Both the position numbers and the translations under genes were made by a program. A stretch of 64,000 bases of DNA, taken from the NCBI GenBank assembly GCA_965197525.1, contig OZ240211.1, positions 896,001-960,000 on the forward strand. Direction: 5' to 3'. Of the stretch, positions 20,814 through 58,573 are shown one piece after another. This stretch comes from Nitrosopumilus sp. (GTDB lineage Archaea; Thermoproteota; Nitrososphaeria; Nitrososphaerales; Nitrosopumilaceae). Position 1 is the first letter of the stretch, and each line of letters starts with the position of its first letter. A model generated the notes under the pieces. It did not search any database. It was not told the origin of the DNA and saw only the letters and a list, made by a program, of their open reading frames with translations.

Positions 20814-21452
20814 TTGTGAGTATCTGCAGAGGTTGAGATATTTGGTAACGCCGCGTGGTGTACGTTCTTCTATTGCCGACAATATGTGTAACATTCTACT
20901 CTCCGCCTAATCTCTCTCTCTCTCTCCCCACAACAGCATTCTTCAGACTAGCTAAAACTATAGTCAATATTGCAGTCAGAGAGGAGTTTGAGAATTGGAT
21001 GTCACGTATACAGAATCTGTTTTTATTGTTCTTGGAAATGTACTTGTCAGTATTGTTACTATTGTTATTATTAATATAATTTGCCATTATTTGGGGCTGT
21101 TAAGTTCATGGTAGATAATTCTTGCTGTTAAGGGTCGGTAGATGATTGTGATTTAGACACCACGTGTAGAATTTTGGATGGTATTATATCATCCTCGTTC
21201 TCATACTCGTATACTGTATCCAGAGTATCTGTAAAACCAGCGGTTCTTTCTGTTCTGACCATAACAATCATCATTATCCATAGTATTCTTTTAACTTTTC
21301 TAATACAGGGTTCTGTTAACTTATCGTCGCTTAATTCTTCCTGTTAACTGTCGAGGGGTGAGTGTTCTGTCGGTTCTGTCTAATAATGGGGATATGGAAT
21401 AGATGTCAGGGGTTAAACCCTGTTGTTAATTGTCAGTAGTTTTATGGTGATT

Positions 21453-22634
21453 TCATAGTTCTGTCTTACCCTTACCGAACTTCATGCCCTCTGCAACCAG
21501 CACGGCATTAAGTTCAGTCATGGTAAGCTTTCCGCCCTTCCGTCTGTTGCAGTTACCACAAAGTAGTTGAAGGTTTTTGTCATCATCCTGACCACCCTTT
21601 GCTTTTGGTATGATGTGATCTACCTCCAAATCCTTGAATAGATAATGGTATTTACAACCGTTGCAGTACCCATGTTGGATTCCGTATAACGTATGCTTGA
21701 CATCCTTGGATCGCCTACCCTTTCTTTTTGGTATATCCGTTCTTTGTATAACTTGTCCTGCGCTAGTAATGAACTTGGCAATTCCTGCATCTTTCTTGAG
21801 TCTTTGTTCAATCAACGAATAGGCTCTTTCTGATATATCGCACCCTATCCATTTTCTGCCCTGTTTCTCTGCTGCAAGACAATCTGTGGCACAGCCACAA
21901 AAGGGGTCAAACACCATTCCACCAGTGTAACTGCTGGCTTTTATGATTCGTTCCAAAAGTGCAAGTGGTTTTTGCGTATGGTGGCCAAGCCTTTCTGAAC
22001 CCTTGACACCAGATATGTCAGTCCAGATGTTCTACAAAGGCAGTCCCTTTGCATCATCAAGATATATCTTATAACGTGGAAGTCCACCTTTTTTCTTTGG
22101 GTAATGCAACATATCATTTTTTTCTAACTCCAACATAGATTCTAACGCTCTCTTCCAGATTCTCATATGCCCCTTGTATTCATACTCGTACCCTCCGCCT
22201 GACAGACTTTTAGCAGTTAATTGTTCATGGCTATAATATCCACGATCATCCTTGTTCTTGAAATTTTTCTTTTTGTATTCCTCCGAGTATGGAAGATAGA
22301 CATCATTCCATGTGTAGTCTCTGGTCTTGGAGTAAAACAGTATCTGGTCAGAAATCTTCCCGTATCTCTTGCTGTCATTGTGAGAACTGGTTCGTTTCCA
22401 CGTTATGTCGTTTCGGAATGATTCCGCACCAAATATTGAATCCAGTACCAGCTTGAGATAATGGCTCATTGTGGTGTCGCAGTGCAGGTACAACGAACCT
22501 GTTGATTTTAGAATTCTATGCATCTCCAAAATCCTAATTGCCATGTATATCAGATACGACATTGTAGATTTTCCTCCTACTTTGCCAGCAGTTCCTATAA
22601 TCGAATACAAGGATTCGTTGATCTCTGCAATCTC
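21453..22634 (-). pseudogene. 5'-truncated, nonsense-mutated copy of the DNA MTase-HNH gene
   Basis: Homologous to 24403-25830; lacks the DPPF motif region; CAG>TAG at 22032-22034; both ORF pieces are in the same frame. Confidence 0.9.
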
Positions 22635-22748
22635 GGTGCACTCAAAGGACAAACTCCAGCAGAATCAGCTAAAATCACGGTTGGCGGAATAAATCGTTGG
22701 AAAACAATTATAGAAAACGCTTCATTGCACAAGCAAAATTCAGTCTAA
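22635..22748 (+). pseudogene. 3' tail of a second IS6-family transposase
   Basis: GALKGQTPAESAKITVGGINRWKTIIENAS matches QSLDGDTPADRAGIRVKGDNKWKTIIQNAS of the intact enzyme; fused directly to the MTase breakpoint. Confidence 0.8.
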
Positions 22749-22756
22749 TAGAATTG

Positions 22757-22828
22757 TGATGGTAGTGGGAATTGAACCCACGTCGTATGGGTCGGAATCC
22801 ATACATCATACCACTAGACCATACAACC
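22757..22828 (-). tRNA. atypical tRNA-like gene or pseudo-tRNA (anticodon ambiguous, TCC or CCG)
   Basis: Cloverleaf GGTTGTA-TG-GTCTAGTGGTATGAT-G-TATGG[ATTCCGAC]CCATA-CGAC-GTGGG[TTCAATT]CCCAC-TACCATC-A; 8-nt anticodon loop; one U.C mismatch and one G.U pair in the acceptor stem. Confidence 0.75.
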
Positions 22829-22981
22829 AAAAATAAATTGCCTCCTGCTTTCCGACGAACTGTGCCCAGTCCAACAGGAGGTATGCTTATTCTAATCGGG
22901 TAAACCGACAGAACACACACAACAAGCTTGTAACATCATAATATTATATACCATATATAAGAATATTATTAGCCTAAAGAT

Positions 22982-23007
22982 TCAGCACCCGAAGATTACA
23001 CAGAACC
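22982..23007. repeat. IS6-type TIR (right-end orientation)
   Basis: TCAGCACCCGAAGATTACACAGAACC is the perfect reverse complement of 24321-24346. Confidence 0.9.
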
Positions 23008-23049
23008 TTCGATCGCAATCATTTTATATAACTATTCTAATACTTAGTA

Positions 23050-23637
23050 ATGACTTTTAAAATAATAAAAACAATACTGTTTACATCTTTGATTACTGCA
23101 ATGATTCTTCCATTTGGAATGGATTATGCATTTGCAGATCATCCAGACACAGATGTATGGAGCACTGATAGAGAATTTGATATTCAATCATCATTGAATA
23201 ACATATCTCATGCAAGTTTTACACCAGCTACAGATTTTGAAGACGCTGCAGACGTATGGAACTCTGTGAGTAATTCGTGGTGGGACTTTACAAGAGATGA
23301 TTCAAGTAATGATGTAGAAATTGGTGCATGGTTTATGGGTTGGCATATATCCACATTAGCTGAAACCACATGGTATGACAGTGGGGGTTACATGTTATGG
23401 GCTTTTATCGATTTTAACAGTGCTAAAGATTTTAGAGATGTAAATGTATCTCAAGGATGGATGTCTTATGACTATGAAACTGTTGCCATCCATGAAATCG
23501 GACATGTTGCTGGTATCCATGATCATACAACAACATCAAGCTCACCTATGATAGCTTCAATTTCAGTCAATACTGTAGATAGAACATTGAACAGCCATGA
23601 TAAAGCAACAATTAGGGGGATGTATCAAGATGAATAA
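23050..23637 (+). CDS. secreted metzincin (matrixin-like) zinc protease
   Basis: Signal peptide; HEIGHVAGIHDH (HExxHxxGxxH) followed by an SPM Met-turn. Confidence 0.85.
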   Translation: MTFKIIKTILFTSLITAMILPFGMDYAFADHPDTDVWSTDREFDIQSSLNNISHASFTPATDFEDAADVWNSVSNSWWDFTRDDSSNDVEIGAWFMGWHISTLAETTWYDSGGYMLWAFIDFNSAKDFRDVNVSQGWMSYDYETVAIHEIGHVAGIHDHTTTSSSPMIASISVNTVDRTLNSHDKATIRGMYQDE

Positions 23638-24199
23638 AAAACTATTACTACCTCTTTTGGTACTTGTGGTAATTCCTGTTCTTGTATTTAGTCAACCAGA
23701 TGCTGATACAATAGGGAAACAATTTGCAGTTGATAACCCAGGTATATCTATTGGTGTTAGTACTTTAGAAGAGGCTTTAACAGAAGAGCAAGAGATCAAC
23801 AGAGCATCTCTTATTGTTGAAGGAACTATACTAGAAGCCAAACCATACTGGAAGATTATCCATAATGATAAACCACCTAGAATTTACACCGAATTTACTG
23901 TTAAAGTAGATGATGTCATCAAAGGTGATATAAATTCTCAAACTATCACATTTGTAGTGGGTGGTGGTGATTTAGATGGAATAATTTCTAGAACAGAGTC
24001 AGTAGATCTAACTGTGGGAGAACAAGTAATTTTATTACTTGGAAAAGACATCTATAGTATATTTGGGGACACATACAACCCAATATCTATCTCAAAATCT
24101 ATTTACAAAATTGAAGATGGTCAAGCAATAAACAAACTAGATGATAGAACAGGCAACAAAGACGACGTAAAAGAGAGAATATCTGATCTATTAAGATAG
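23630..24199 (+). CDS. secreted or anchored partner protein of the protease
   Basis: ATG 23630 overlaps the protease stop; N-terminal hydrophobic helix; ASLIVEGTILE...IYTEFTVKVDDVIKG. Confidence 0.7.
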   Translation: MNKKLLLPLLVLVVIPVLVFSQPDADTIGKQFAVDNPGISIGVSTLEEALTEEQEINRASLIVEGTILEAKPYWKIIHNDKPPRIYTEFTVKVDDVIKGDINSQTITFVVGGGDLDGIISRTESVDLTVGEQVILLLGKDIYSIFGDTYNPISISKSIYKIEDGQAINKLDDRTGNKDDVKERISDLLR

Positions 24200-24320
24200 A
24201 TACCCTTATCTTTTTTTTATGAATATTAGTTAAAGAATTATAAAATAACATCATATGTCATAAATTGTGCGAATTGACTGCTGCAGGAATTGTGGGAAGT
24301 TATTAAAAGTGTTGGAATAT

Positions 24321-24346
24321 GGTTCTGTGTAATCTTCGGGTGCTGA
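24321..24346. repeat. IS6-type TIR (left-end orientation)
   Basis: GGTTCTGTGTAATCTTCGGGTGCTGA, perfect inverted partner of 22982-23007. Confidence 0.9.
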
Positions 24347-24402
24347 GATTATGAGTTCTGTTAACTTGACGGGATCTAACTCTTTCTGGTAAGTGTCAGG
24401 AG

Positions 24403-25830
24403 CTAGGATCCAGAACGCCCCTTGCCGAACTTCATGCCCTCTGCAACTAGCACGGCATTAAGTTCAGTCATGGTAAGCTTTCCGCCCTTCCGTCTGTTGC
24501 AGTTACCACAAAGTAGTTGAAGGTTTTTGTCATCATCCTGACCACCCTTTGCTTTTGGTATGATGTGATCTACCTCCAAATCCTTGAATAGATAATGGTA
24601 TTTACAACCGTTGCAGTACCCATGTTGAATACCGTATAGCGTATGCTTGATGTCCTTGGATCGCCTGCCTTTTCTTTTTGGTATATCCGTTCTTTGTATG
24701 ACTTGTCCTGCACCAGTAATGAACTTGGCAATACCTGCATCTTTCTTGAGTCTTTGTTCAATCAGCGAATAGGCTCTTTCTGATATATCGCACCCTATCC
24801 ATTGTCTACCCAATCTCTCTGCCGCAAGACAAGCTGTTGCACATCCACAAAACGGATCAAACACGATTTCTCCTACGTTACTGCTTGTCTCAATGATGCG
24901 CTCCAGTAATGCCAGTGGTTTTTGCGTGGGATAACCAAGTCTTTCCTGACCTCGAACATTTGGAATATCAGTCCAGATGTTCTGTAGTGGTACACCTTTA
25001 GCATCTTTCAGGTATATCTTGCGACGAGGCAGTCCACCCTTCTTCTTTGGATAGTGTATCATGTCGTTCCTTTCCAACCCTAGCATAGATTCTAACGGTC
25101 GTTCCCATGTCCTTATGTGTCCCTTATACTCATACTCATATCCCCCAGCCGATAAGTTCTCGGCAGTCAATTTCTCGTGACTGTAACGTCCACGCCCGTC
25201 CTCATTCTTGAAATTCTTCTTGGTGTATTCTTCCGAGTACGGCAGATATACATCATTCCATGTGTAGTCTCTGGTCTTGGAGTAAAACAGTATCTGGTCA
25301 GAAATCTTCCCATATCTCTTGCCGTCATTGTGAGAACTGGTTCGTTTCCACGTTATGTCGTTTCGGAATGATGCTCCACCAAATATTGAATCCAGTACCA
25401 GCTTGAGATAATGACTCATTGTGGTATCGCAGTGCAGGTACAACGAACCCGTTGATTTTAGAATTCTGTGCATCTCCAAAATCCTAATTGCCATGTATAT
25501 CAGATACGACATTGTAGATTTTCCTCCTACTTTGCCAGCAGTTCCTATAATCGAATACAAGGATTCGTTGATCTCTGCAATCTCACCCCACCATGCAACA
25601 TCCACATCACTAAGTGTCCATGTGTCCTTAAACTCGACACCTGCTGCCTTTGATCCTATTGGTGCAGCATAATTGTGTTTGGAATTGAACGGAGGATCAA
25701 GATAAATCAAATCTACACCTTCATCTTCCATACCTCTCATAACAGGCAGATTATCGGCTGTGAAGATAGTTCGATTTTTAATGGTCAAAATGACCACCTT
25801 GAATAACATGATTTGATTTGATTGCTTCAA
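24403..25830 (-). CDS. amino-DNA methyltransferase (N6/N4 family) fused to a C-terminal HNH endonuclease
   Basis: IYLDPPFNS (motif IV), YPTQKP and FDPFCGCAT (motif I), beta-class order; C-terminal CNGC...DHIIPKAKGG..NLQLLCGNCNRRK HNH; true start may be TTG 25788. Confidence 0.92.
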   Translation of the reverse strand: MKQSNQIMLFKVVILTIKNRTIFTADNLPVMRGMEDEGVDLIYLDPPFNSKHNYAAPIGSKAAGVEFKDTWTLSDVDVAWWGEIAEINESLYSIIGTAGKVGGKSTMSYLIYMAIRILEMHRILKSTGSLYLHCDTTMSHYLKLVLDSIFGGASFRNDITWKRTSSHNDGKRYGKISDQILFYSKTRDYTWNDVYLPYSEEYTKKNFKNEDGRGRYSHEKLTAENLSAGGYEYEYKGHIRTWERPLESMLGLERNDMIHYPKKKGGLPRRKIYLKDAKGVPLQNIWTDIPNVRGQERLGYPTQKPLALLERIIETSSNVGEIVFDPFCGCATACLAAERLGRQWIGCDISERAYSLIEQRLKKDAGIAKFITGAGQVIQRTDIPKRKGRRSKDIKHTLYGIQHGYCNGCKYHYLFKDLEVDHIIPKAKGGQDDDKNLQLLCGNCNRRKGGKLTMTELNAVLVAEGMKFGKGRSGS

Positions 25831-25862
25831 AAATATTATTGGAAGGAAGTACCCCTATTGTG

Positions 25863-26224
25863 GGTTCTTGGTTCTTGGTTCTTGGTTCTTGGTTCTTGGT
25901 TCTTGGTTCTTGGTTCTTGGTTCTTGGTTCTTGGTTCTTGGTTCTTGGTTCTTGGTTCTTGGTTCTTGGTTCTTGGTTCTTGGTTCTTGGTTCTTGGTTC
26001 TTGGTTCTTGGTTCTTGGTTCTTGGTTCTTGGTTCTTGGTTCTTGGTTCTTGGTTCTTGGTTCTTGGTTCTTGGTTCTTGGTTCTTGGTTCTTGGTTCTT
26101 GGTTCTTGGTTCTTGGTTCTTGGTTCTTGGTTCTTGGTTCTTGGTTCTTGGTTCTTGGTTCTTGGTTCTTGGTTCTTGGTTCTTGGTTCTTGGTTCTTGG
26201 TTCTTGGTTCTTGGTTCTTGGTTC
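25863..26224. repeat. perfect heptanucleotide tandem repeat (GGTTCTT)x51 plus GGTTC
   Basis: 357 bp / 7 = 51 identical units, read directly. Confidence 0.97.
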
Positions 26225-26230
26225 ATATCA

Positions 26231-26395
26231 TCACATACTCGGTTTTAGAATCAGTTTGTTTCCAATGATTTTAGCTTCCAATTCCTGTCCTTTGTTCCAC
26301 TCCAGTTTTTTTACTTCTTCCTTTGAAAGATTGATGTACCATCTTCGATATTCCTTGTCACCTACACGTCTGTTTATCTTGTCTTGTAACTTCAT
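26231..26395 (-). CDS. AbrB/MazE-like (swapped-hairpin) DNA-binding protein
   Basis: Hand translation MKLQDKINRRVGDKEYRRWYINLSKEEVKKLEWNKGQELEAKIIGNKLILKPSM (54 aa); below the ORF-track cutoff. Confidence 0.7.
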   Translation of the reverse strand: MKLQDKINRRVGDKEYRRWYINLSKEEVKKLEWNKGQELEAKIIGNKLILKPSM

Positions 26396-26409
26396 ATCTT
26401 TTAATTATA

Positions 26410-26474
26410 TAGACCCCTAATAAACAAATCGGTTTATTTGTAGGGGTCTAAACATTTATATTATTAGGGGTCTA
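26410..26474. promoter_or_regulatory. putative operator: three TAGGGGTCTA boxes
   Basis: TAGACCCCTA (26410), TAGGGGTCTA (26441, 26465); 14-bp perfect inverted repeat 26410-26423 / 26461-26474 between the divergent AbrB-like and transposase genes. Confidence 0.6.
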
Positions 26475-26603
26475 ATACTATTGTATGAAAAGAACTGCAA
26501 TGATGAAAAAAGAATCAAAGGGTATGGGACACCCAATGATGAGATTGTTACGATCTGAGTACTCTTTTCTGTCCCACTTTATAATTTTTGAGGTGTCGTA
26601 CCT

Positions 26604-27728
26604 ATGAACGCAAGACAGGCAAGAGGTCAAACCATTGTAGAAAAACAGGGTCAGATCAGAAGAATAAACGACACACAATACGAGATCAAAAGCCAAAACA
26701 GTGATTCTCTATACGATGTGGTTGGCACTGAGTTTGGATGGTCGTGTTCATGTCCCGATCATCAGTTCCGTAAGGTTTGCTGTAAACATATCCATGCAGT
26801 CGAAATATCAATCAAGATACATCAAAAGGTGTATGATGATGTGGTAATTTCAGAAGTTACCATTGACACGTGCAAATACTGCAAATCGGCAAACATAACC
26901 AAGATGGGAGTACGTCACAACAAAAATTATGACGTTCAGATGTTTAGTTGCAAAGACTGTAACAGAAAGTTTTCAATCAATTTGGGATTTGAGAAGATGA
27001 GGGCTACACCAGACCAAATCACAATGGCTATGAACCTGTACTTTAACGGTGAATCCACAAGAAAGACTGCACAGTCGTTGTTACTCACTGGAATCAAGGT
27101 ATCAAACGTCACCATACACAACTGGATAAAGAAATACGTTGATCTTATGGATAGGTATTTGGAAAAGATTACACCTCAAGTGGGTGAATCATGGAGGACT
27201 GATGAGATGTATTTGAAGATCAAGGGTGACAAAAAATACATGTTTGCCATGTTAGATTCTGAGACTAGATTTTGGTTGGCACAGATGGTCTCAGAACACA
27301 AGGGGAATGATGATGTATCGCCAATGTTCAAACAGGCTAAATGCACTGCCAACAAAGTGCCATCAACCCTAATATCTGACGGAGCTGCAAACTTTCATCA
27401 TGCTTGGAAAGAACAATACAAGGCAAAGAATTTCTTACACAAGGACACAGAACACGTAAGGCACATACATCTTGCAGGCGATATGAACAACAACCAAATG
27501 GAATCCTTTAACGGTAATACCATGAGGTTGCGTGAGAGTGCTACAAGAGGAATCAAAAAAGATGATTCTGTCATATTCAAGGGTATGCAAATCCATCACA
27601 ACTTTGTCAGACCTCATCAAAGTTTAGATGGTGATACTCCAGCAGACAGGGCCGGTATCAGGGTTAAAGGTGACAACAAATGGAAAACCATAATTCAGAA
27701 CGCTTCAATGGTACCTACCAACCCTTAA
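26604..27728 (+). CDS. IS6-family DDE transposase with N-terminal SWIM and Zn-ribbon domains
   Basis: CSCPDH...CKHI SWIM; CKYC...CKDC; WRTDEMYLKIKG, LISDGA, NNQMESFNG catalytic segments; stop lies inside the right TIR. Confidence 0.9.
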   Translation: MNARQARGQTIVEKQGQIRRINDTQYEIKSQNSDSLYDVVGTEFGWSCSCPDHQFRKVCCKHIHAVEISIKIHQKVYDDVVISEVTIDTCKYCKSANITKMGVRHNKNYDVQMFSCKDCNRKFSINLGFEKMRATPDQITMAMNLYFNGESTRKTAQSLLLTGIKVSNVTIHNWIKKYVDLMDRYLEKITPQVGESWRTDEMYLKIKGDKKYMFAMLDSETRFWLAQMVSEHKGNDDVSPMFKQAKCTANKVPSTLISDGAANFHHAWKEQYKAKNFLHKDTEHVRHIHLAGDMNNNQMESFNGNTMRLRESATRGIKKDDSVIFKGMQIHHNFVRPHQSLDGDTPADRAGIRVKGDNKWKTIIQNASMVPTNP

Positions 27729-28007
27729 CAGCAAGAATTACCTACCGTGAACTTAACAGCCCCCATTATTTTTTACCATTATTTTGTAGACAACGATACG
27801 GTAATTGACCGGAGGTTTCTTTATCGTATTTTTGACAACTTGAAGTTTTACCAAGCACATTGTCTTGATTGGGATCAGTAACAACACTACTTGAAAGAAT
27901 TACAAAAGTCACATTCAGTATTAAAAACAACCATCATATAACAAAGAGGTCATCTAAACTAGTCTTAGACCGATAATAATATACATGATTAACGGTGAAA
28001 TCTTGAT

Positions 28008-38480
<10,473 letters not shown>

Positions 38481-38596
38481 CGAGCATCAAAACTACGACG
38501 GTGAATCAAACCAAGTACCGTATCATCTGGCAGTTTGCGGAACTTGTATCCGTGGATGGGTATGGCCTGCGATGAAAGTTAATTTTGGCTACTATA

Positions 38597-39679: not shown

Positions 39680-39704
39680 TAGTATTAAAATTAATCAACT
39701 GTTA

Positions 39705-41067: not shown

Positions 41068-41216
41068 AACTGTTAGATTTGAATAAATTATGCATAATCT
41101 AGATTACCCATAATCTCTATTATAATGAATTGCGTGACAATAATGATGCACTATCTTATGATTATGATGTAGTGATTGGTAATTATGAAGAACTACTTGA
41201 TCAGAATAGTGTACTA

Positions 41217-42299
41217 GAGTGACGTCAAAAAGTCTTTGCAATTTTCAAAAACACTAGAAACATTTATAGCTTGAAGCATTTACTGCCCATCGTGAAAAAC
41301 CAGAATGTGGAATTAATGTGTGTCTACAAGAGGGAATTAAACCCAAAAGCAAAAGAACGGATGCTTGCAGTGTTAAATGTCATAGAGGAAGGCGAAACGA
41401 TTTCAATAATCGCACAGTTGTTTTACAAATCTTACAACACAATTAAAAATTTGGTTATGCGATTTAAAGAATTTGGAGTTGCAGGATTGTATGAAAAACC
41501 AAGATCCGGACGCCCGACAAAAATAGTAAATCATAAGATTACAGAATTTTTTGCAGGTGTTAAAAACGGTATTTTTCCAAAACAACTCGTACATAAAATA
41601 AAAAAAGATACAGGAGTAAAATACACCGAATCTGGAATACGTGACATACTGCGTCGTCATAACTTTACTCCAAAGGTACCAGGATTCCGCACACAAAAAC
41701 AAGGCATCTAGTGAACAGATGGAAGAGTGGCAAAAATCCCTGAAACGGTGGATTTCATGCGTAAAACGGGACGGTTTTGAGATGTATATACAGGATGAAA
41801 CAACTGATGCATGACTATGTCACAAAGCGCGGCCCATGGTCTCCGGTGGGTCAAAAAATATTCAGAGCATATTTTGGAGACATCGGAGACGTATAATTTA
41901 TGGTGCAATATCAGACTCACATCAATATTTTTTACAGAAAAAAAAATTCAACGGTTCGACATTTCTCAAATTTGTCAAAAAACTATTGGAACTATCTGAC
42001 AAGGTAGCCATTGTCATGGATGCAGCATCCCAACATAAAACAAAGACATTTAAAAAATTTGTAAAAGAAAACAGTTCTCGACTGCGAATAATGTATTTGC
42101 CTACAGGATGTCCTGAATTTAGTGCAATTGAAGAATGTTGGCACCAGTTAAAAATTCAACCTTTCATGTATGAACGCCATGAACATGTTAGCGAACGTGC
42201 ACGAGCCGCAATGAAATATCTAAGAACCGCTACATTCAATCAAAATATTGAACGGTATCTATTCAGAAAATCAATTGCAAAGACTTAATGACGCCACTC
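41217..42299 (+). mobile_element. IS630-family element, copy 3 (inverted relative to copies 1 and 2)
   Basis: Same 1083-bp unit, TIRs and TA duplication; a few substitutions. Confidence 0.95.
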
Positions 42300-42904
42300 T
42301 ATCAAAAAAGAGACAAGAAAACACATCTTTTACATTATGCATAATTTGTTAATAAATACATGCTTTAAATACATCTAAAATAATAATGGTTTAAAATTAT
42401 GAATATTGATGGACGTTATTTGTTTATTTTTAAAGTTAGGTTTTCGGATATGAAATAATTTGGGCGCCGTTGCATCAATGACAATTACTACAACAATAAT
42501 GAATCCAAACTCAATATCTTGTTCGTGATTTTATAATACATACACTTGTTAGTATCAAAATTGAAAATTATAGTCTTTTATATTTACACAGAGATCATAT
42601 GATGTTAGAAAATTGACAACATGGATTACAAATGTATTTGATATAATCAAAATAAATACATAGAGATGATAATAATCCAATTTATCATCAGATATTGTGT
42701 TAGAGCATTTTGCTGTGTACCATTCATACCTGCTTGTTGAGGCAGATGACATCAATATGCAGACTGCCTTCTTTGGTATCATGCTAAAGATATTTGACAG
42801 TATTAGTACAGAATATCAAGATATTCGTCCTAGATTGTTAATGGGGTCAGAGGTTTTAGTAGGTTAATCACAAATCATACAGCCACCGTCTCATCATACC
42901 CCAA

Positions 42905-46783: not shown

Positions 46784-46801
46784 ATCTACAAAACACGGTA
46801 A

Positions 46802-47782
46802 TTAACTAATGGCAAGCATTCTGTCAATTGCCAGACGGGCCTTAGATGCAATCTCTTTAGGAACAGTAACTATATTTTTTTCATTGACTAGTGTATCATA
46901 TACCTTCTCCAATGTGATCATCTTCATGTACTGGCATTCTGCCTTATCTGATGCAGGAACAAATGTTTTGGTAGGATTTTGTTGTCTCATCTTGTAGAGT
47001 ATTCCAGTTTCAGTAGCAACGACAAAACGAGAAGATTTTGACTGACTGACATGATTAAGCATGCCTTCAGTTGAGAGAATTGATACTTTGTGATTATCAA
47101 AACTGCCGTCTGCTACATCGTACATCAGTGGCGTGGTACAACTGCATTCAGGATGAATAACGAATTCGGTATCGCGCATTTCATCCAATTTTTTAGTCAC
47201 GTCTTCAGGAGTGATCCCTGCATGAACATGGCATTCACCTGCCCAAATGTGCATGTTTTTTCTGCCAGTCATCTTTGCAACATATGCACCAAGAAACATG
47301 TCAGGCAAAAACAAGATCTCTTTGTTCTCTGGAATTGCTTTGATGACATTTACGGCATTTGATGAAGTACAACAATAGTCGAGTTCTGCTTTGATCTCTG
47401 CTGTAGTGTTAACATAGCCTACTGATATGGCATCAGGATGCTGCGCTTTCCAATTTCGTAACTCGCCTACTGTAATTGAGTCAGATAGTGAACATCCCGC
47501 ATCTAGATCAGGCAGTAACACCTTTTTCTCAGGACTGATTATAGCAGCAGTCTCTGCCATGAAATTTACACCACAAAATAAGATTGTCTTTTGACTCACA
47601 GTAGCTGCCTGTCTTGATAGACCTAGAGAATCACCTGTAAAATCAGCGATATCTTGAACATCGGGAATCTGATAGTTGTGTGCCAAGATTACCACATCTT
47701 TCTCTTTTTTAAGTCGCATGATCTCGTCTTTGAGGTTTAATGGCGATGAGGATGAAGGTGGTGGTTGTACTAGCATAAGCAA
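46802..47782 (-). CDS. nadA: quinolinate synthase A
   Basis: LAHNYQ, FCGVNFMAETA, AGCSL, CHVH and HPEC motifs. Confidence 0.96.
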   Translation of the reverse strand: MLMLVQPPPSSSSPLNLKDEIMRLKKEKDVVILAHNYQIPDVQDIADFTGDSLGLSRQAATVSQKTILFCGVNFMAETAAIISPEKKVLLPDLDAGCSLSDSITVGELRNWKAQHPDAISVGYVNTTAEIKAELDYCCTSSNAVNVIKAIPENKEILFLPDMFLGAYVAKMTGRKNMHIWAGECHVHAGITPEDVTKKLDEMRDTEFVIHPECSCTTPLMYDVADGSFDNHKVSILSTEGMLNHVSQSKSSRFVVATETGILYKMRQQNPTKTFVPASDKAECQYMKMITLEKVYDTLVNEKNIVTVPKEIASKARLAIDRMLAIS

Positions 47783-47944
47783 TAAAAAATTGCGTTTGTG
47801 GGAATTTAAAGAGTAGGAAATTGTCTAAAAATATCTAAAAATCATGTAAATGTGGCAATTATTGCCATTTACGGTTCTGTGAAGTTATCGGGGGTTATCT
47901 GTCAATCCCTAAAATGTATAAACCTCTAAACCGTAAGATATTCG

Positions 47945-49138
47945 TTGAGAGCGATAAAGTCAATATCACAGAAATATACGCCAAACTCTGATCTAATGGA
48001 TATGATGGCTATATTCACAAAGATGGTCAATCATTGCATCAAGACAGGATTGAAAGAAGACACTCACAATATGAAGAGGTTGTCCATGTTATGTTATCAT
48101 GAATTACGTAATTATGACATCCTGTCTTCATACAAACTAAATGCAATATCACGAGCTGCAGGCATATTATCAAACAGAAAACAATCAATCAAACGAGGTG
48201 TCAGAATAAGAGACCCAATAGTCAAAAATCCCTTTATGACAAACTGTTACGGTATACAACACAGCGGTGCACTATTAACAATCCCATACAAGAAACATAA
48301 CCCAATCAACATTTTACTCAACGTTCACACCCAAAAAATCCTATCTGATCCCGCCTTGACGGTGCGCTCGTTTTCATTGACTGCTCTGAACATCAGTCTT
48401 TGTGTTTCAAAAACAGTACAAGAGATAGAGTGCACCAATCAAGTGGGAATAGACAGAAACCTAAGAAATGTGACGTGTGGGAACAAGCAAGAGGTGACAG
48501 TCTACAAGACAAACAAACTGTTATCCATAAAGGAGAACACAATACACGCTAGGGCAGGATTCCACAGAAATGATCGCAGAAAGAAAGGTCAATTCTGGAA
48601 ACAAAGACAGAGACGAATGAGCAATAGAACAAAGCAGTACATCCACAGAATCTCAAAGGATATGGTATACAACGCAGTCAAAAACAAGACTGCAATCGTC
48701 ATGGAAAACCTGAAAGGAATAAGAAAATTGTACCGAAAAGGAAACAGTCAAGGTAACAAGTACAGGCGTAGATTGAACGGGTGGCAATTCTACGAGTTAC
48801 AACGCCAAATAGAATACAAAGCCCAATGGGTAGGGCTGCCTCCAGTCAAGACAGTAGACCCAGGAAACACGAGCACGCAGTGTCCACGATGCGGAAAGAG
48901 ACTCCAAGAGGACATGCAACAACATCGTAAAATGTCGTGTAATAATTGCGGTTTGTTTATGGACAGGGATATTATTGCTGCCATGAACATATCACGCAAG
49001 CTGCCCCCTAGGTTTAGGGGTAGTAGAGATGACATAGATGAAGCGCAGTCCGGCACTTTTGAGCAGGCGATGACGGAACCCGGCACACCATTGGTAATCC
49101 GAATAGTCGATATGTCAAAGTCAAGTTATAGGGGTTAA
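47945..49138 (+). CDS. tnpB: TnpB RNA-guided endonuclease
   Basis: RuvC-I GIDRN, RuvC-II MENL, Zn finger CPRC/CNNC, RuvC-III DRDIIAAMNI; stop lies within the right TIR. Confidence 0.95.
   Translation: MRAIKSISQKYTPNSDLMDMMAIFTKMVNHCIKTGLKEDTHNMKRLSMLCYHELRNYDILSSYKLNAISRAAGILSNRKQSIKRGVRIRDPIVKNPFMTNCYGIQHSGALLTIPYKKHNPINILLNVHTQKILSDPALTVRSFSLTALNISLCVSKTVQEIECTNQVGIDRNLRNVTCGNKQEVTVYKTNKLLSIKENTIHARAGFHRNDRRKKGQFWKQRQRRMSNRTKQYIHRISKDMVYNAVKNKTAIVMENLKGIRKLYRKGNSQGNKYRRRLNGWQFYELQRQIEYKAQWVGLPPVKTVDPGNTSTQCPRCGKRLQEDMQQHRKMSCNNCGLFMDRDIIAAMNISRKLPPRFRGSRDDIDEAQSGTFEQAMTEPGTPLVIRIVDMSKSSYRG
49001..49122 (+). ncRNA. putative omegaRNA scaffold overlapping the tnpB 3' end
   Basis: Nucleotide conservation with 57272-57390 after RuvC-III, including a CCCTA-GGTT-TAGGG hairpin, ends abruptly after GTCGATATGTCAAAGTC; boundaries approximate. 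Confidence 0.6.
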
Positions 49139-49164
49139 CTCCCGATAACTTCACAGAACCCCAT

Positions 49165-49986
49165 TTACGTACCAATAGTGATATCATCTGTGCAGTATCG
49201 TCTCAGAGTTTCGATTGCAGACAGGATAGCCAGCCTGCTAGTCTTAGGATTTAGAGAATCAGGATAGTTTTCAATGGTAAAAATCATCGCACCAAATTTG
49301 CCTTTAGCCTGTATATGATGAGTATTTTTTGTAGAATCCGGATCTGCTACTATCTTTACAAACGTCTTTTCACTGCCAATTCCAGATAGTGATAATAGTG
49401 CTGCAACGTTAATGTTGGCAGGAAACAAATGTACTGCCTCTTTGGCAGCACCCTGAAAGATTGTCGTTGGTGTAGATATAGAGTCCAAGTCCATAGGACA
49501 TTTCTCAAAGAACTTTGCACCTTTAAGAGAACGAGGATGTTTGGTAGTGGTTATTGACAAAGTCTCCAGCTCTGATTTGACTGATTTGATCCCATCCAAT
49601 CCGGCAATAGCCCCTGATGGTAAAATTATTCTTTTCTTAAAATCCCTACAAGCATCAGACAGTATATCATAGACTGACTCGTCTAGCAATGCACCAACGC
49701 TCATAATCATTAGATCACGCTTGTTTTGCAAAACACTTAGTGCAACATCGCGTACGGCATCTTGAGATGCGGCCTCAACTACAATGTTGAGTGGATGGGA
49801 GGACAGTAAATGAGAGTTTTCAACAATTTCAGGTTTGTTTACTAGTTTTTCAACCAAAGACGTAGATGCCTCTTTTGAATCATCATATACATGGGTAATT
49901 ATTGCTGCTGGGATTTTACCAGAGTCAACTGCAAGAGCTATCTGGGTTCCAATTGCACCGCATCCTAAGAGGCCTATTCGTATCAA
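49165..49986 (-). CDS. nadX: L-aspartate dehydrogenase
   Basis: GCGAIG, VVEAASQ, LPSGAIAG, FPANINVAA and NPKTS motifs; stop codon lies inside the TSD. Confidence 0.93.
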   Translation of the reverse strand: MIRIGLLGCGAIGTQIALAVDSGKIPAAIITHVYDDSKEASTSLVEKLVNKPEIVENSHLLSSHPLNIVVEAASQDAVRDVALSVLQNKRDLMIMSVGALLDESVYDILSDACRDFKKRIILPSGAIAGLDGIKSVKSELETLSITTTKHPRSLKGAKFFEKCPMDLDSISTPTTIFQGAAKEAVHLFPANINVAALLSLSGIGSEKTFVKIVADPDSTKNTHHIQAKGKFGAMIFTIENYPDSLNPKTSRLAILSAIETLRRYCTDDITIGT

Positions 49987-52598: not shown

Positions 52599-52751
52599 GT
52601 CACCTTGTCAAGAAAAGCACTAGTGACAAGAGTGCAACGACAGCAAACCCGCTTACAAGAGCAATTTTTGCATTATCCATGCTGCTAATTTACCAAAGTG
52701 TAATAAAAATAAAGCTGAATTGTGCTACTACCGTTAAAAGACATACTGCAT

Positions 52752-53303: not shown

Positions 53304-53304
53304 T

Positions 53305-55223: not shown

Positions 55224-55254
55224 ATCAGATTAGCAAGTGTTACACTACCGGCAA

Positions 55255-56145: not shown

Positions 56146-56247
56146 ATTTTAAACTTTGAATTGATCTTAAAATGAATAGTATATAATAAATTACACAAGA
56201 GTCAAACTTTTTCACTTATTTGGGAATAGATCCAAGTCATTAAAAGA

Positions 56248-57186
56248 CTAGATGACACCACGCAGTATCTGAACAATCTTTTCAGCTATAACGTTTGCTG
56301 CCAGAGATTGGGCTTCTTTTGTTTGGGCACCGATATGAGGTGTTAAAATAACACTGTCTAGTTGGGCTAGTTTATTCCCAATTGCAGGTTCTTTCTCAAA
56401 GACATCAAGAGCTGCACCGCCCAAAGTGCCATTGCTGAGGGCATCATACAAAGCATCTTCATCAACAACACCGCCTCTAGAGGTATTGATGATCTTGGCA
56501 GTGTCCTTCATCATAGACATCTTTTCTGCATTAAGAAGATGGTATGTAGAGTCAAGCAAGGGAACGTGAATTGAGATATAGTCTGAGCTTTGTAATAAAG
56601 TGTCAAGGTCAGCCTTCATTAGACCAACCTCTTTTGAAAATTCGGCATCAATAGGAATCACATCATAGCCAATAATGTTCATATTAAATCCACGGGCAAG
56701 TCTTGCCAATCTCTTTCCGATGTTTCCCAGACCTATAATTCCAAGATACTTTCCGCGCAGTTCAGTTCCCTTTAGTTCTTTTTTGAGCCATTGTTGATTC
56801 CTTATTGCTCTATCGCCCCTTGCAGTCTGTCTTGCAAGTGATAACATTAAACCTAAAACCAGTTCTGCGACAGCATTCATCGCTCCTTCTACAGCGTTAA
56901 TTACACGAATATCTTTTGCGTTAGCTGCTTTTTGATCTATGTTGTCGAGTCCAACCCCAACACGAGCAATAATCTTACAATTATCAGCTTTTTCAATCAT
57001 CTCTTGGGTAATGGTAGTTCTACTACGAACAATTATAATATTAAACTCAGAGATCGTATCGAGAATTTGTGTAGCAGTAATTTCAGGTTGATAAGACACG
57101 CGTAGTCCATTATCTGATAAAATTTTTTCAAGTATTGGATCAACCTGATCACATATCAGAACAGAATCATCAAATCCCATAATCAA
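56248..57186 (-). CDS. serA: D-3-phosphoglycerate dehydrogenase family protein
   Basis: ARVGVGLDNID, GLGNIG, INTSRG, LDVFEKEP and TPHIGA motifs. Confidence 0.88.
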   Translation of the reverse strand: MIMGFDDSVLICDQVDPILEKILSDNGLRVSYQPEITATQILDTISEFNIIIVRSRTTITQEMIEKADNCKIIARVGVGLDNIDQKAANAKDIRVINAVEGAMNAVAELVLGLMLSLARQTARGDRAIRNQQWLKKELKGTELRGKYLGIIGLGNIGKRLARLARGFNMNIIGYDVIPIDAEFSKEVGLMKADLDTLLQSSDYISIHVPLLDSTYHLLNAEKMSMMKDTAKIINTSRGGVVDEDALYDALSNGTLGGAALDVFEKEPAIGNKLAQLDSVILTPHIGAQTKEAQSLAANVIAEKIVQILRGVI

Positions 57187-57243
57187 ATGATGTGTAATAC
57201 AGCATATATTTCATAGGTTCTGTTGCATTAACGAGTGGTGTTA

Positions 57244-58443
57244 TTAACAATAACAATCACTCAGAACACTGGACTTTGACATATCGACTATCTGGATTAC
57301 CGGTATACAGGGTTCCATCATAGCTGACTCAAAAACGTCAGACTGCGCTTCACTTATGCCATCTCTACTATCCCTAAACCTAGGGGACAGTTTGCGTGAT
57401 ATGTTCATGGCAGCTATAATGTCTCTGTCCATGAATAATCCGCAATTATTACACGACATTTTACGATGTTGTTGCATGTCCTCTTGGAGTTTCTTTCCGC
57501 ATCTTGGACATTGCGTGCTCGTGCGTTTTGGGTATACAAATTTGACTGGGAGCCCGACCCATTGGGCTTTGTATTCTATTTGGCGTTGTAACTCGTAGAA
57601 TTGCCAGCCATTCAATCTACGTCTATACTTGTTTCCTTGACCATTTCCTTTCTTGTACAATTTTCTTATTCCTTTCAAGTTTTCTAACACAATTACAGCC
57701 TTTTTACTAACGGCATTATCCACAATATCTTTTGATATTTTGTGTATGTATTGTTTTGTTCTATTGGCCATTCTTTGCTGTTTTATCTTCCAGAATTGAC
57801 CTTTTTTTCTATTGTCATTTCTGTGAAAACCAGCTCTTGCATGTATTGTGTTCTCTTTGATAGATAACAGTTTGTTAGTTTTATAGAACATTACTTTTTC
57901 ATCATTCCCACATGTGACATTTCTAAGGTTTCTGTCTATACCTATTACATTAGAGCACTCTATCTCTTCTATTTGTTTTGAGACACAAATACTAATGGTA
58001 CCATCATTTAATGAAAATGAACGTATAGTTAATTCAGGGTCAGATAGAATATTTTGAGTGTGATCATTTAACAGTATATTGATAGGTTGTCTGTTCTTGA
58101 ATGGTATTGTTAGTAGTGCACCATTGTGTTTTATACCGTAACAATTAGTGATAAATGGCTTTTTTATTTTTGGATATTTAACTTTGACGCCACGTTTTAT
58201 TGATTGCCTTCTGTTTGATAGCATGCCGGCAGCCCTTGATATTGCACAGATTTTATATGTTGATAAAATATCGTATTGATTTAACTCATGATAACACAGA
58301 TAGGACAACCGTTTCATATTGCACACATCTTCTTTTAGTCCTATTCTAATGGAAAGGTTTACCATTTCTATGAATGTATCCATCAACTCTTTTAGTTCAG
58401 AGTTTGGCGTATGCTTTTGTGTTATTGATTTTATGGCTTGCAC
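57244..58443 (-). CDS. tnpB: TnpB RNA-guided endonuclease (paralog)
   Basis: GIDRN, LENL, CPRC/CNNC and DRDIIAAMNI all intact. Confidence 0.95.
   Translation of the reverse strand: MQAIKSITQKHTPNSELKELMDTFIEMVNLSIRIGLKEDVCNMKRLSYLCYHELNQYDILSTYKICAISRAAGMLSNRRQSIKRGVKVKYPKIKKPFITNCYGIKHNGALLTIPFKNRQPINILLNDHTQNILSDPELTIRSFSLNDGTISICVSKQIEEIECSNVIGIDRNLRNVTCGNDEKVMFYKTNKLLSIKENTIHARAGFHRNDNRKKGQFWKIKQQRMANRTKQYIHKISKDIVDNAVSKKAVIVLENLKGIRKLYKKGNGQGNKYRRRLNGWQFYELQRQIEYKAQWVGLPVKFVYPKRTSTQCPRCGKKLQEDMQQHRKMSCNNCGLFMDRDIIAAMNISRKLSPRFRDSRDGISEAQSDVFESAMMEPCIPVIQIVDMSKSSVLSDCYC
57272..57390 (-). ncRNA. putative omegaRNA scaffold of the second tnpB
   Basis: Conserved with 49001-49122; boundaries approximate. 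Confidence 0.6.
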
Positions 58444-58573
58444 GTTATAAATTACAAGGTTTGTTTTTAATAAAAGTGCTTTTTTTATTTATTTGGTTCT
58501 ATTTTACCACTAGTGAATGCAACAGAGCCATTTCATACAAAATAATAAAAAAGAAAAAAAGATGTTTATACAA

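What the first reader, a model, noticed from the sequence alone, without database searches (positions are those of the whole stretch)
21093..58537. Candidate system: one IS6 transposase lineage mobilising interchangeable nuclease cassettes
Four elements in 64 kb have related ends but different payloads: TnpB (twice), MTase-HNH and unknown ORFs. Three have exact 8-bp TSDs. Only one intact IS6 transposase is present (26604). The tnpB-1 TIR matches the internal TIR at 24321 at 16/20, and the partner of that TIR (22982-23007) lies downstream of the IS6 transposase remnant at 22635-22748. Both nuclease types can act as retention or addiction modules. The inference is a TIR-based cassette family that captures selfish nucleases.
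Basis: inference. Interest (0 to 1): 0.82.

Follow-up and report, generated by a model that had tools for sequence, protein, structure and literature searches.

The report
IS6-like transposon family with nuclease cargo
A Nitrosopumilus-type archaeon carries a family of jumping genes with IS6-like ends: some hold a transposase, often with a methylase-nuclease gene, while about 34 hold only the RNA-guided nuclease TnpB and must borrow a transposase, probably not the one in this window.

Summary
The core observation is real. One detail and the central attribution need correction.

**Confirmed elements (three, each with exact 8-bp target duplications):**
- tnpB-1, 47873-49160
- tnpB-2, 57216-58529
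- a 6671-bp composite, 21093-27763

**Not an element:** the fourth one, "unknown ORFs" at 22982-24346. Its two 26-nt arms point outward. They are the right end of a truncated transposase element and the left end of the next unit.

**Genome-wide (2.21 Mb, one contig):**
- 34 full-length TnpB copies plus about 10 stubs carry GGTTCTGT-type inverted ends.
- No Y1 or serine recombinase is present.
- Seven IS6-like transposase copies are present: four intact, one frameshifted, two not assessed.

**Transposase attribution:** the ends of the window's 374-aa transposase resemble the TnpB ends least (12-15 of 24). Copies elsewhere fit better. The truncated element at 22634-23007 shares all 26 end bases with one TnpB subfamily.

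**Cargo:** it varies under the same ends, including TnpB, methylase-HNH, tRNA genes and unknown ORFs.

**TTR motif:** a one-sided T-T-purine motif sits just before the left duplication of 36 of 42 TnpB-type elements. It is absent from 0 of 4 transposase-bearing elements.

The same architecture occurs in other Nitrosopumilaceae genomes. This scan had already reported the TnpB part elsewhere in this genome. I rate it a new variant of the known DDE-associated TnpB kind.

The parts
21085..21092 (.). Left 8-bp target-site duplication CATTATTT of the 6.7-kb composite
   Evidence: Flanks are contiguous at five other genomic loci.
21093..21146 (+). Left terminal inverted repeat of the composite. Tip is GGGGCTGTTAAG, with an internal second CTGTTAAG box.
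   Evidence: (I4)
21309..21359 (+). Extra, stacked left-end sequence of E700/E583 type (GGTTCTGTTAAC...)
21372..21403 (+). Third stacked left-end-like sequence (GGTTCTGTCTAA...), similar to E746/E1956/E2002 left ends
21453..22652 (-). Broken second copy of the methylase-HNH gene. It is split into two ORFs, lacks the first ~82 codons, and is 87.5% nt identical to the intact copy.
22634..22749 (+). 3' remnant of an IS6-like transposase gene of the E746/E2002 clade
22756..22828 (-). tRNA-like gene carried between the transposase remnant and the right end. The sister element E2002 carries tRNA-Leu(UAA) at the same place.
   Evidence: (Rfam tRNA, 48.6 bits)
22982..23007 (-). Right end of the truncated transposase element. 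Its 26 nt are identical to the TIR of TnpB subfamily F3.
   Evidence: (I7)
23008..24320 (.). Unique 1313-bp passenger segment between two outward-facing ends. It holds a matrixin-like ORF (23050-23637) and an unknown ORF (23597-24199).
24321..24346 (+). Left end of F3 type, a perfect inverted copy of 22982-23007
24353..24402 (+). Second, stacked left end. It is homologous to the inner end of E700 and to the ends of the 4-kb element in genome G013.
24403..25830 (-). Intact 475-aa beta-class DNA methyltransferase fused to an HNH nuclease. It shows the DPPF and FDPFCG motifs and an HNH domain with two CxxC pairs.
25863..26224 (.). (GGTTCTT) x about 52 heptamer array between the divergent methylase-HNH and transposase genes
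26231..26395 (-). 54-aa ORF with a weak AbrB/MazE-like match
   Evidence: E 0.003, below the cut-off
26604..27728 (+). Intact 374-aa IS6-like DDE transposase. It has a SWIM-type zinc finger, a zinc ribbon and a DDE domain; D200, D259 and E300 are invariant among relatives.
27710..27763 (-). Right terminal inverted repeat of the composite
27764..27771 (.). Right 8-bp target-site duplication CATTATTT
47862..47864 (+). TTG immediately 5' of the left duplication of tnpB-1 (candidate target-adjacent motif)
47865..47872 (.). Left duplication CCATTTAC of tnpB-1
47873..49160 (+). tnpB-1 element, 1288 bp, subfamily F1, with 25-nt TIRs. It is absent, together with one duplication copy, from a related population.
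   Evidence: Empty-site contig in run X3.
47945..49138 (+). TnpB ORF, 397 aa. The RuvC motifs GIDRN, MENL and DRD and the CxxC...CxxC zinc finger are all present.
49161..49168 (.). Right duplication CCATTTAC of tnpB-1
57208..57215 (.). Duplication ATTTCATA on the TnpB-downstream side of tnpB-2
57216..58529 (-). tnpB-2 element, 1314 bp, subfamily F4, with 24-nt TIRs at 21/24
57244..58443 (-). TnpB ORF, 399 aa, 76% identical to tnpB-1
58530..58537 (.). Duplication ATTTCATA on the TnpB-upstream side of tnpB-2
58538..58540 (-). CAA on the + strand, which reads TTG on the TnpB strand, immediately 5' of the duplication

Best explanation
The window samples a Nitrosopumilaceae-wide family of DDE transposons with IS6-like ends (GG..CTGT tips, 24-54 nt TIRs, 8-bp target duplications).

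Autonomous members encode a ~375-aa IS6-like transposase with two N-terminal zinc modules. They usually carry passengers: a methylase-HNH fusion, a methylase with an unknown partner ORF, tRNA genes, or unknown ORFs.

Non-autonomous members keep only the ends and carry TnpB plus the 3' region where its guide-RNA scaffold is expected. They are moved in trans by IS6-like transposases encoded elsewhere in the genome. The best candidates are the E746/E2002 type for subfamily F3 and the E700 type for F4 (tnpB-2). No exact partner was found for F1 (tnpB-1).

The 6.7-kb composite is one autonomous methylase-HNH/transposase element that moved as a unit. Before that move it had acquired fragments of a second, F3-ended element and a 1.3-kb host segment, most simply by recombination with a circular or tandem copy.

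Shown: boundaries, duplications, copy numbers, shared ends, absence of other recombinases, presence in relatives, and one empty site.

Inferred: trans-mobilisation, which transposase acts on which ends, and any retention role of TnpB or methylase-HNH.
For: Boundaries and mobility:
- Three TSD-flanked elements lie in the window.
- Paralogous empty sites exist for the composite.
- A DNA contig from another sample joins 47864 to 49161, skipping 1296 nt, which equals tnpB-1 plus one TSD.

Family size:
- 34 full-length TnpB copies, 60-100% identical to tnpB-1 and mostly 76-98%, nearly all between GGTTCTGT TIRs.
- About 10 stubs of 208-497 bp keep only the ends and the TnpB 3' region.

Shared ends:
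- The transposase-remnant element at 22634-23007 and TnpB subfamily F3 share 26/26 end bases.
- Intact E746 (1970 bp, TSD CTATTGTG) shares the first 18.
- E700 matches the tnpB-2 TIR at 20/24.

No alternative recombinase:
- PF01797 and PF00239 give no hit in the 99%-complete single-contig genome, with working controls.
- The IS630- and IS5-type elements in the window have unrelated ends.

Transposase identity:
- Pfam DDE_Tnp_IS240 scores 53 bits against a cut-off of 27.
- The best NCBIfam hit is IS6.
- The DDE residues are invariant.

Relatives:
- The same TIR/TSD/TnpB architecture occurs in G077, G056, G094 and G008, and in named Nitrosopumilus MAGs.
- 8 of 11 other TnpB-positive genomes have the transposase, against 65 of 150 overall.

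Cargo:
- Methylase-HNH sits next to the transposase in G100 (twice), G125, G039 and G044.
- The closest transposase, in G013 at 75% identity, sits in a 4027-bp element with an N6/N4 methylase.
Against: - No element anywhere examined holds TnpB and the transposase between one pair of ends. The nearest transposase to any TnpB copy in this genome is 9 kb away.
- The most recently active subfamily, F1 (copies up to 98% identical), has no transposase-bearing partner with matching ends. The best match is 18-19/24.
- Three TnpB-positive genomes (G008, G035, G084) show no IS6-like transposase. They are assemblies of 90-120 contigs, so absence is not shown.
- The transposase scores below NCBIfam's IS6 cut-off (106-121 vs 125). 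It is far longer than classical IS6 transposases (PMC7986276).
- Only the terminal ~18-26 nt are shared between TnpB elements and transposase elements. Nothing subterminal is shared (one search compared).
Confidence: 0.72

Rival explanations
1. Strict first-reader version: the single 374-aa transposase at 26604-27728 mobilises all the cassettes in the window, both TnpB elements included.
For: It is the only intact IS6-like transposase in the window, with conserved DDE residues. Its element has transposed as a unit with an 8-bp TSD. All ends share GG..CTGT at positions 1-8.
Against: Its own TIR (GGGGCTGTTAAG...) is the least similar of all transposase-linked ends to every TnpB subfamily TIR, at 12-15/24. 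It differs at tip positions 3-4. Six other copies in at least two further clades exist in the genome, and their ends fit better.
Confidence: 0.1
2. The one-sided T-T-purine motif reflects the target preference of whichever transposase moves the TnpB elements. It is not the TnpB target-adjacent motif, and TnpB plays no part in site choice or retention.
For: DDE transposases can have sequence preferences. The motif abuts the top-strand cut site. No guide RNA 3' end was mapped here. The subfamily-conserved part of the TnpB 3' tail stops 38-56 nt before the tip.
Against: The motif is on the TnpB-upstream side only: 36/42 there against 6/42 on the other side, with a genome frequency of 8.8%. The TIRs are near-perfect, so the termini themselves offer no asymmetry. 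None of four transposase-bearing elements with intact TSDs has the motif on either side. Stubs that keep only the TnpB 3' region have it on the matching side. It persists across TnpB relatives down to 37% identity with different TIRs.
Confidence: 0.25
3. The TnpB elements are ordinary IS200/IS605- or IS607-type (IS1341-like) elements moved by a Y1 or serine transposase. On this view the inverted ends and duplications are incidental.
For: TnpB is typically in those families (PMC10691335). Two related genomes (G084, G035) do encode Y1 transposases.
Against: No Y1 or serine recombinase is found in this complete genome, with positive controls. Of these elements, 27 have TSDs of at least 7/8 and 24-26 nt TIRs, which those families do not make. 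In G084 and G035 the Y1 genes sit beside a different TnpB clade, 26-31% identical. The 49-52% relatives there still end in GGTTCTGT.
Confidence: 0.02
4. The shared ends are relics. The TnpB elements were once mobilised but are now immobile fossils, and the IS6-like transposases no longer act on them.
For: No exact partner exists for subfamily F1. Twenty-one of 52 elements lack matching TSDs, and several copies are degraded.
Against: Many F1 copies are 96-98% identical with perfect TIRs and TSDs and open frames. The tnpB-1 insertion is absent from a related population. A sister MAG has 13 copies at different sites.
Confidence: 0.08

Closest known systems
DDE-transposase-associated TnpB branches (DDE-1 to DDE-6) and solo TnpBs with the same ends, Altae-Tran et al. 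2023 (PMC10691335)
   Same: TnpB lies between symmetric inverted terminal repeats. TnpB-only copies have ends matching transposase-bearing elements, so trans-mobilisation is inferred. The TnpB 3' end lies within 250 bp of the transposon end.
   Different: The DDE partners named in the literature read here are ISL2, IS630 and IS1031 (PMC13565253), not IS6-like. Here no element holds both genes. The partner carries its own nuclease cargo. A one-sided TTR motif separated from the end by the 8-bp duplication is documented.
IS6/IS26 family insertion sequences, including the long zinc-finger clade h and the single passenger-carrying member ISDsp3 (PMC7986276)
   Same: A DDE transposase best matching the IS6 profiles, 8-bp direct target repeats, short GG-started inverted repeats, stacked ends, and directly oriented units around a passenger segment as in pseudo-compound transposons.
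   Different: Elements are 1.97-6.7 kb rather than 0.7-0.9 kb. The transposase is 374-383 aa with SWIM and zinc-ribbon modules, against 213-254 aa. Cargo is the rule rather than a single exception. TIRs reach 54 nt with a repeated internal box. The NCBIfam score is below the IS6 cut-off. The host is a Nitrosopumilaceae archaeon, a lineage not among the archaeal groups listed in that review.
IS1341-type TnpB-only elements of IS200/IS605
   Same: A single TnpB gene of ~400 aa, intact RuvC and zinc-finger motifs, a small element of ~1.3 kb, and many copies.
   Different: IS200/IS605 elements have no inverted ends, make no duplication and insert directly 3' of the target motif. These elements have 24-26 nt TIRs and 8-bp duplications, and no Y1 enzyme is in the genome.
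MITEs and mobile insertion cassettes (passenger genes between IS ends without a transposase; recalled from my own knowledge of MIC231-type cassettes)
   Same: Transposase-free units bounded by the ends of an autonomous IS, with target duplications typical of that IS. Deletion derivatives of 208-497 bp exist.
   Different: The passenger is an RNA-guided nuclease with its guide region. Even the smallest derivatives retain the TnpB 3' region rather than ends only.
Fanzor/TnpB in eukaryotic DDE transposons, where the 5' duplication is read as part of the TAM (review PMC13565253)
   Same: An RNA-guided nuclease rides a DDE transposon that makes target duplications. The geometry lets the nuclease recognise the unoccupied site.
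   Different: Here the duplication is variable and the fixed motif lies just outside it. This is prokaryotic and IS6-like, and no biochemical data exist.

Membership tests
IS6/IS26 family | DDE transposase matching the IS6 (IS240) profile | tested here: inconclusive
   Pfam PF13610 scores 53.2 bits against a cut-off of 27. NCBIfam transpos_IS6 is the best hit over 201/202 positions but scores 106-121 bits against a cut-off of 125.
IS6/IS26 family | 8-bp direct target repeats | tested here: met
   The composite, E746, E1956 and L043 each have exact 8-bp TSDs. So do 27 TnpB-type elements, at 7/8 or better.
IS6/IS26 family | Short terminal inverted repeats with conserved GG tips | tested here: met
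   All ends start GG..CTGT. Likeness to the IS26 terminus itself is recalled from memory, not tested.
IS6/IS26 family | Length about 0.7-0.9 kb with a single 213-254 aa transposase filling the element | tested here: not met
   Elements are 1970-6671 bp and the transposase is 374-383 aa with two added N-terminal zinc modules. Figures for the family come from PMC7986276. Only clade h, at 340-350 aa with a zinc finger, resembles this.
IS6/IS26 family | Replicative transposition through cointegrates | not testable with these tools
   The search for swapped flanks in this genome gave nothing convincing. One swapped pair in a sister MAG fits homologous inversion instead.
TnpB (OMEGA) RNA-guided nucleases | RuvC-I/II/III acidic residues and a C4 zinc finger | tested here: met
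   GIDRN, MENL, DRD and CxxC...CxxC align with solved TnpB/Cas12f chains. NCBIfam guided_TnpB scores 121-136 bits against a cut-off of 100.
TnpB (OMEGA) RNA-guided nucleases | Guide RNA scaffold at the gene's 3' end, reading into flanking DNA | tested here: inconclusive
   No Rfam family matched. Stubs retain exactly this region. The fold z-score is only -1.96. RNA-library contigs pile up on 48780-49125, but contig depth cannot rank parts of a gene.
TnpB (OMEGA) RNA-guided nucleases | Target-adjacent motif 5' of the guide-matching sequence | tested here: inconclusive
   WTR sits at -11 to -9 in 36/42 elements, one-sided, P about 3e-32. The position is right for a TAM if the guide starts at the right duplication. 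Cleavage was not tested.
IS200/IS605 (and IS607) | Y1 (or serine) transposase, asymmetric ends, no target duplication | tested here: not met
   No PF01797 or PF00239 hit in the genome. Symmetric TIRs and 8-bp TSDs are present.
DDE-associated TnpB with solo copies sharing ends (PMC10691335) | Inverted terminal repeats around TnpB that match those of transposase-bearing elements | tested here: met
   26/26 with the transposase-remnant element in the window. 18/18 terminal bases with intact E746. 20/24 with E700.
DDE-associated TnpB with solo copies sharing ends (PMC10691335) | Some members encode TnpB and the DDE transposase in one element | tested here: not met
   None was found among 34 copies here, 19 loci in family genomes and 15 loci in named MAGs.
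Restriction-modification-like cargo | Methyltransferase catalytic motifs plus a nuclease domain | tested here: met
   PF01555 at 151 bits, PF01844 at 51 bits, and the DPPF, FDPFCG and HNH/CxxC motifs. Restriction activity and any post-segregational effect were not tested.

The most novel reading that the evidence does not exclude
The TnpB elements are DDE-type OMEGA transposons with a division of labour. IS6-like elements supply the transposase. The TnpB cargo imposes or selects the landing geometry: TTR, then the 8-bp duplication, then the right flank. A guide RNA read across the right end would therefore match the unoccupied allele exactly, and only that allele. TnpB could then cut empty sites, giving homing or anti-loss, in a transposon class that does not excise scarlessly. 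The autonomous partners carry a second kind of selfish nuclease module, methylase-HNH with a slippery heptamer tract.
Probability: 0.3. Interest if true: 0.85.

Novelty: new variant of a known kind. Interest (0 to 1): 0.6.

Why it matters
TnpB is understood as a helper of scarlessly excising IS200/IS605 and IS607 transposons. Its rare links to DDE transposons are poorly explained.

This family offers an unusually clean natural data set:
- dozens of TSD-flanked copies,
- several co-diverged end types,
- candidate partner transposases in the same complete genome,
- sister genomes with the same design,
- a natural empty site.

The one-sided TTR motif turns "why would a DDE transposon keep TnpB?" into a testable question about empty-site cutting or site selection.

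The autonomous partners extend the IS6 family from near cargo-free 0.8-kb elements to multi-kb archaeal carriers of methylase-nuclease and tRNA genes. The small TnpB proteins with a short candidate TAM may also interest genome-editing work.

Tried and rejected
- **Swapped or reverse-complement flanks.** I searched the 21 TSD-less elements for signatures of IS26-type cointegrates or inversions. Only two AT-rich near-matches turned up, compatible with chance.
- **TnpB and transposase in one element.** None was found in this genome, in 19 family loci or in 15 loci of named MAGs.
- **Rfam scan of 20000-60000.** It found only the tRNA-like gene and no guide-RNA family.
- **Single-sequence fold of the tnpB-1 tail.** It is weakly better than shuffles (z -1.96) and is not evidence for a scaffold.
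- **RNA runs X6 and X10.** They are contigs. Their higher summed depth over 48780-49125 and the drop after 49125 may reflect subfamily divergence breaking the assembly. I do not use them to place an RNA 3' end.
- **Co-occurrence of TnpB and the transposase across 151 genomes.** The figures are 8/11 against 65/150. The genomes are related and many are fragmented, so no test was applied.
- **Pure MITEs without any TnpB tail (M883, M572, M338).** They were too few to test whether TTR needs the TnpB module.
- **IS630-type element (38594-39684 and 41212-42302) and IS5-type element (39704-41067).** I considered both as alternative DDE partners and rejected them because their ends are unrelated.
- **History of the left 3.3 kb of the composite.** I could not reconstruct an unambiguous order of events. 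The stacked left ends at 21309, 21372 and 24353 remain unexplained.

Full report
**Context**

The window is bases 896001-960000 of a single-contig 2.21-Mb genome. Close relatives of its TnpB genes lie in records titled Nitrosopumilus sp. MAGs. RNA libraries that hold parts of the element are sponge metatranscriptomes. Earlier notes of this scan call the organism a sponge-associated Nitrosopumilus-type archaeon.

**Observation check**

Three of the four claimed elements are real.

- **tnpB-1** spans 47873-49160. It has 25-nt TIRs at 24/25 and the duplication CCATTTAC.
- **tnpB-2** spans 57216-58529. It has 24-nt TIRs at 21/24 and the duplication ATTTCATA. Each of these two elements holds one ORF, identified as TnpB by Pfam and NCBIfam.
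- **The composite** is a 6671-bp unit at 21093-27763 with 49-54 nt TIRs and the duplication CATTATTT. The sequences on its two sides lie next to each other, sharing one copy of the 8 bp, at five other places in the genome. The boundaries are therefore exact.

The fourth 'element' (22982-24346, 'unknown ORFs') is not an element.

- Its left arm ends ...ACAGAACC at 23007 and its right arm begins GGTTCTGT at 24321. The tips face away from the enclosed 1313 bp, and no duplication flanks it in either sense.
- The left arm is the right end of a truncated transposase element. Positions 22634-22749 align to the last ~115 nt of three IS6-like transposase genes elsewhere in the genome, and the alignment resumes over the last ~70 nt to the tip.
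- Between those two stretches lies a tRNA-like gene at 22756-22828 (ARAGORN; Rfam 48.6 bits). The sister element E2002 carries tRNA-Leu(UAA) at the same place.

**Genome-wide picture**

A tblastn search finds 34 full-length TnpB copies, 60-100% identical to tnpB-1 and mostly 76-98%.

- Almost all sit between 24-26 nt TIRs that start GGTTCTGT.
- Pairing of tips with TIR identity and TSD filters gives 31 elements with a TSD of at least 7/8.
- TIR sequence co-varies with TnpB subfamily. tnpB-1 belongs to F1 and tnpB-2 to F4.
- About ten stubs of 208-497 bp keep the two ends and only the last ~90-115 codons of TnpB, the region where a guide-RNA scaffold would be expected.
- TnpB keeps the RuvC motifs and the zinc finger.

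**Who moves them**

The genome has no Y1 transposase and no serine recombinase, and the positive controls worked. It has seven IS6-like transposase copies in at least three clades, 31-59% identical to each other.

- The protein matches Pfam DDE_Tnp_IS240 above threshold.
- IS6 is its best NCBIfam family, though below that model's cut-off.
- It carries an extra SWIM-type zinc finger and a zinc ribbon.
- D200, D259 and E300 are invariant among five relatives.

Transposase-bearing elements with exact 8-bp TSDs are E746 (1970 bp), E1956 (4126 bp, with a nested IS5-type element and a frameshift) and the window composite.

End comparison over 24 nt gives the following:

| Transposase-linked end | Match to TnpB TIRs |
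|---|---|
| Window transposase's own TIR | 12-15/24 to every TnpB subfamily (the worst of all) |
| E700 | 18-20/24 to F1, F2 and F4 |
| E746/E2002 | Identical to F3 over the first 18 nt |
| Truncated element in the window | Identical to F3 over all 26 nt |

Trans-mobilisation by IS6-like transposases is therefore well supported as an inference.

Points against:
- No element holds both genes.
- F1 has no exact partner.
- Three fragmented relatives with TnpB elements show no IS6-like transposase.

In two of those three relatives a Y1 gene exists. It sits beside a different TnpB clade (26-31% identical), and the 49-52% relatives there still end in GGTTCTGT.

**The TTR motif**

With elements oriented by TnpB, the three bases just 5' of the left duplication are [T/A]-T-[A/G].

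- This holds in 27 of 27 elements with intact TSDs and in 36 of 42 overall.
- On the other side the count is 6 of 42. The genome frequency is 8.8%, giving P about 3e-32.
- Both window elements have TTG there.
- None of four transposase-bearing elements with intact TSDs has the motif on either side.
- The motif is present in relatives with TnpB as low as 37% identical and with different TIRs, and in a sister MAG.

The geometry has a clear consequence. An RNA reading out across the right end would carry the duplication plus the right flank. That sequence follows TTR only in the unoccupied site. A contig from another sample shows just such an empty site for tnpB-1, joining 47864 to 49161.

Whether TnpB cuts that site, and whether TTR is imposed at insertion or selected afterwards, is not shown. 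I see the same. The remaining stretch can fold into a terminal hairpin that uses the inner TIR, so the question of where the guide starts stays open.

**Cargo of the autonomous elements**

In the window, a 475-aa beta-class methyltransferase fused to an HNH nuclease (24403-25830, minus strand) lies divergent from the transposase. Between the two genes are a (GGTTCTT) array of about 52 units and a 54-aa AbrB/MazE-like ORF.

- E700 (3190 bp) has the same two genes in the same arrangement.
- Methylase-HNH homologues (34-54% identical) sit next to IS6-like transposases in G100 (two loci), G125, G039 and G044. The closest methylase-HNH homologues (52-79%) have no transposase within 1.5 kb.
- The closest transposase (75%, G013) lies in a twice-repeated 4027-bp element with 52-55 nt TIRs, an unknown 386-aa ORF and an N6/N4 methylase.
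- Other cargo under the same kind of ends includes tRNA genes, unknown ORFs in E583 and L043, and a non-TnpB insert under F4 ends in E1394.

'Interchangeable cargo' is therefore supported. 'Nucleases only' is not.

**The composite**

From left to right it reads:
- the outer left end (21093)
- two more stacked left ends (21309, 21372)
- a broken methylase-HNH copy
- the transposase remnant, the tRNA-like gene and the F3 right end (23007)
- the unique 1313-bp segment with a matrixin-like ORF
- the F3 left end (24321) and another stacked left end (24353)
- the intact methylase-HNH, the heptamer array and the transposase
- the outer right end (27763)

Both halves run methylase-HNH then transposase. 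The outer ends pair with each other and the inner ends pair with each other. The simplest reading follows a lead from a note on this window. A circular or tandem form of an F3-ended element plus the 1.3-kb segment recombined into a resident element within the shared methylase-HNH gene. An internal deletion then removed most of the second transposase. This resembles IS26 translocatable-unit biology (PMC7986276). The order of events is inference, and the stacked ends are unexplained.

**Comparison with what is known**

- Altae-Tran et al. 2023 describe six DDE-associated TnpB branches with inverted terminal repeats, and solo TnpBs with the same ends as transposase-bearing elements (PMC10691335).
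- A 2026 review lists the DDE partners as ISL2, IS630 and IS1031 (PMC13565253). An IS6-like partner is not mentioned in what I could read. The paper's supplementary tables were not available.
- The IS6 review reports elements of 0.7-0.9 kb, one passenger-carrying member, two MITEs and no Nitrosopumilaceae member.

I therefore file this as a new variant of a known kind. It works like a DDE-associated, trans-mobilised TnpB element, with an IS6-like partner that fails the classical size criteria of IS6.

This scan has already reported the TnpB part at several other places in this genome, and IS6-like cargo carriers in other genomes.

This report adds:
- the link to a transposase-bearing element with identical ends
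- the ranking of candidate transposases
- the recurrent methylase-nuclease and tRNA cargo
- the natural empty site
- the correction of the fourth element

Noticed in passing
window 25863-26224: A perfect (GGTTCTT) array of about 52 units lies between the divergent methylase-HNH and transposase genes. The unit resembles the transposon tip GGTTCTGT. Seven-base units change the reading frame with copy number, so it could act as an on/off tract.
   Followed up: partly
window 22756-22828 (minus strand); L006 448-535: A tRNA-like gene (Rfam 48.6 bits; ARAGORN reports an odd four-base anticodon) sits inside the truncated IS6-like element. The sister element E2002 carries tRNA-Leu(UAA) in the same slot, while E746 has unrelated sequence there.
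   Followed up: partly
window 38594-42302: Two copies of a 1.09-kb IS630-type element (DDE_3 plus HTH ORFs, 29-nt TIRs, about 10 genomic copies), 99.8-100% identical to each other, lie in inverted orientation around a 1364-bp IS5-type element. A third copy is at window 17197-18283.
   Followed up: partly
window 28008-38480: A 3490-aa ORF is built from at least 24 tandem 204-nt (68-aa) repeats at 76-98% identity. Its G+C is 48-56%, against about 38% around it. It starts 240 nt after the right end of the composite.
   Followed up: no
window 21000-21092 and 27764-27970: The target that the 6.7-kb composite landed in is itself a repeated sequence, with five other copies in the genome at 75-94% identity.
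   Followed up: partly
L081 and L083 (OZ245003.1, about 126 kb apart, inverted): Two TnpB elements in a sister Nitrosopumilus MAG have exactly swapped 8-bp flanks (TAGAAACT/TTATGTTA and TTATGTTA/TAGAAACT). This is the footprint of a large inversion by recombination between two inverted copies.
   Followed up: partly
L045 3322-7348 (genome G013; second identical copy in L046): A 4027-bp IS6-like element holds the closest transposase (75%), an N6/N4 methylase without HNH and an unknown 386-aa ORF with no Pfam match. The unknown ORF may be the nuclease partner of a two-gene restriction-modification pair.
   Followed up: partly
genome 1394563-1396016 (L008): A 1454-bp element with F4 ends, an exact TSD and the TnpB tail has about 1.2 kb of unrelated sequence in place of the TnpB body. 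This suggests cargo replacement inside a TnpB-type element.
   Followed up: no
window 47700-49400, run X3: The run that shows the empty site for tnpB-1 is labelled a viral metagenome. Its flanks differ from the window by several percent, so a related population lacking this insertion is present in that sample.
   Followed up: no
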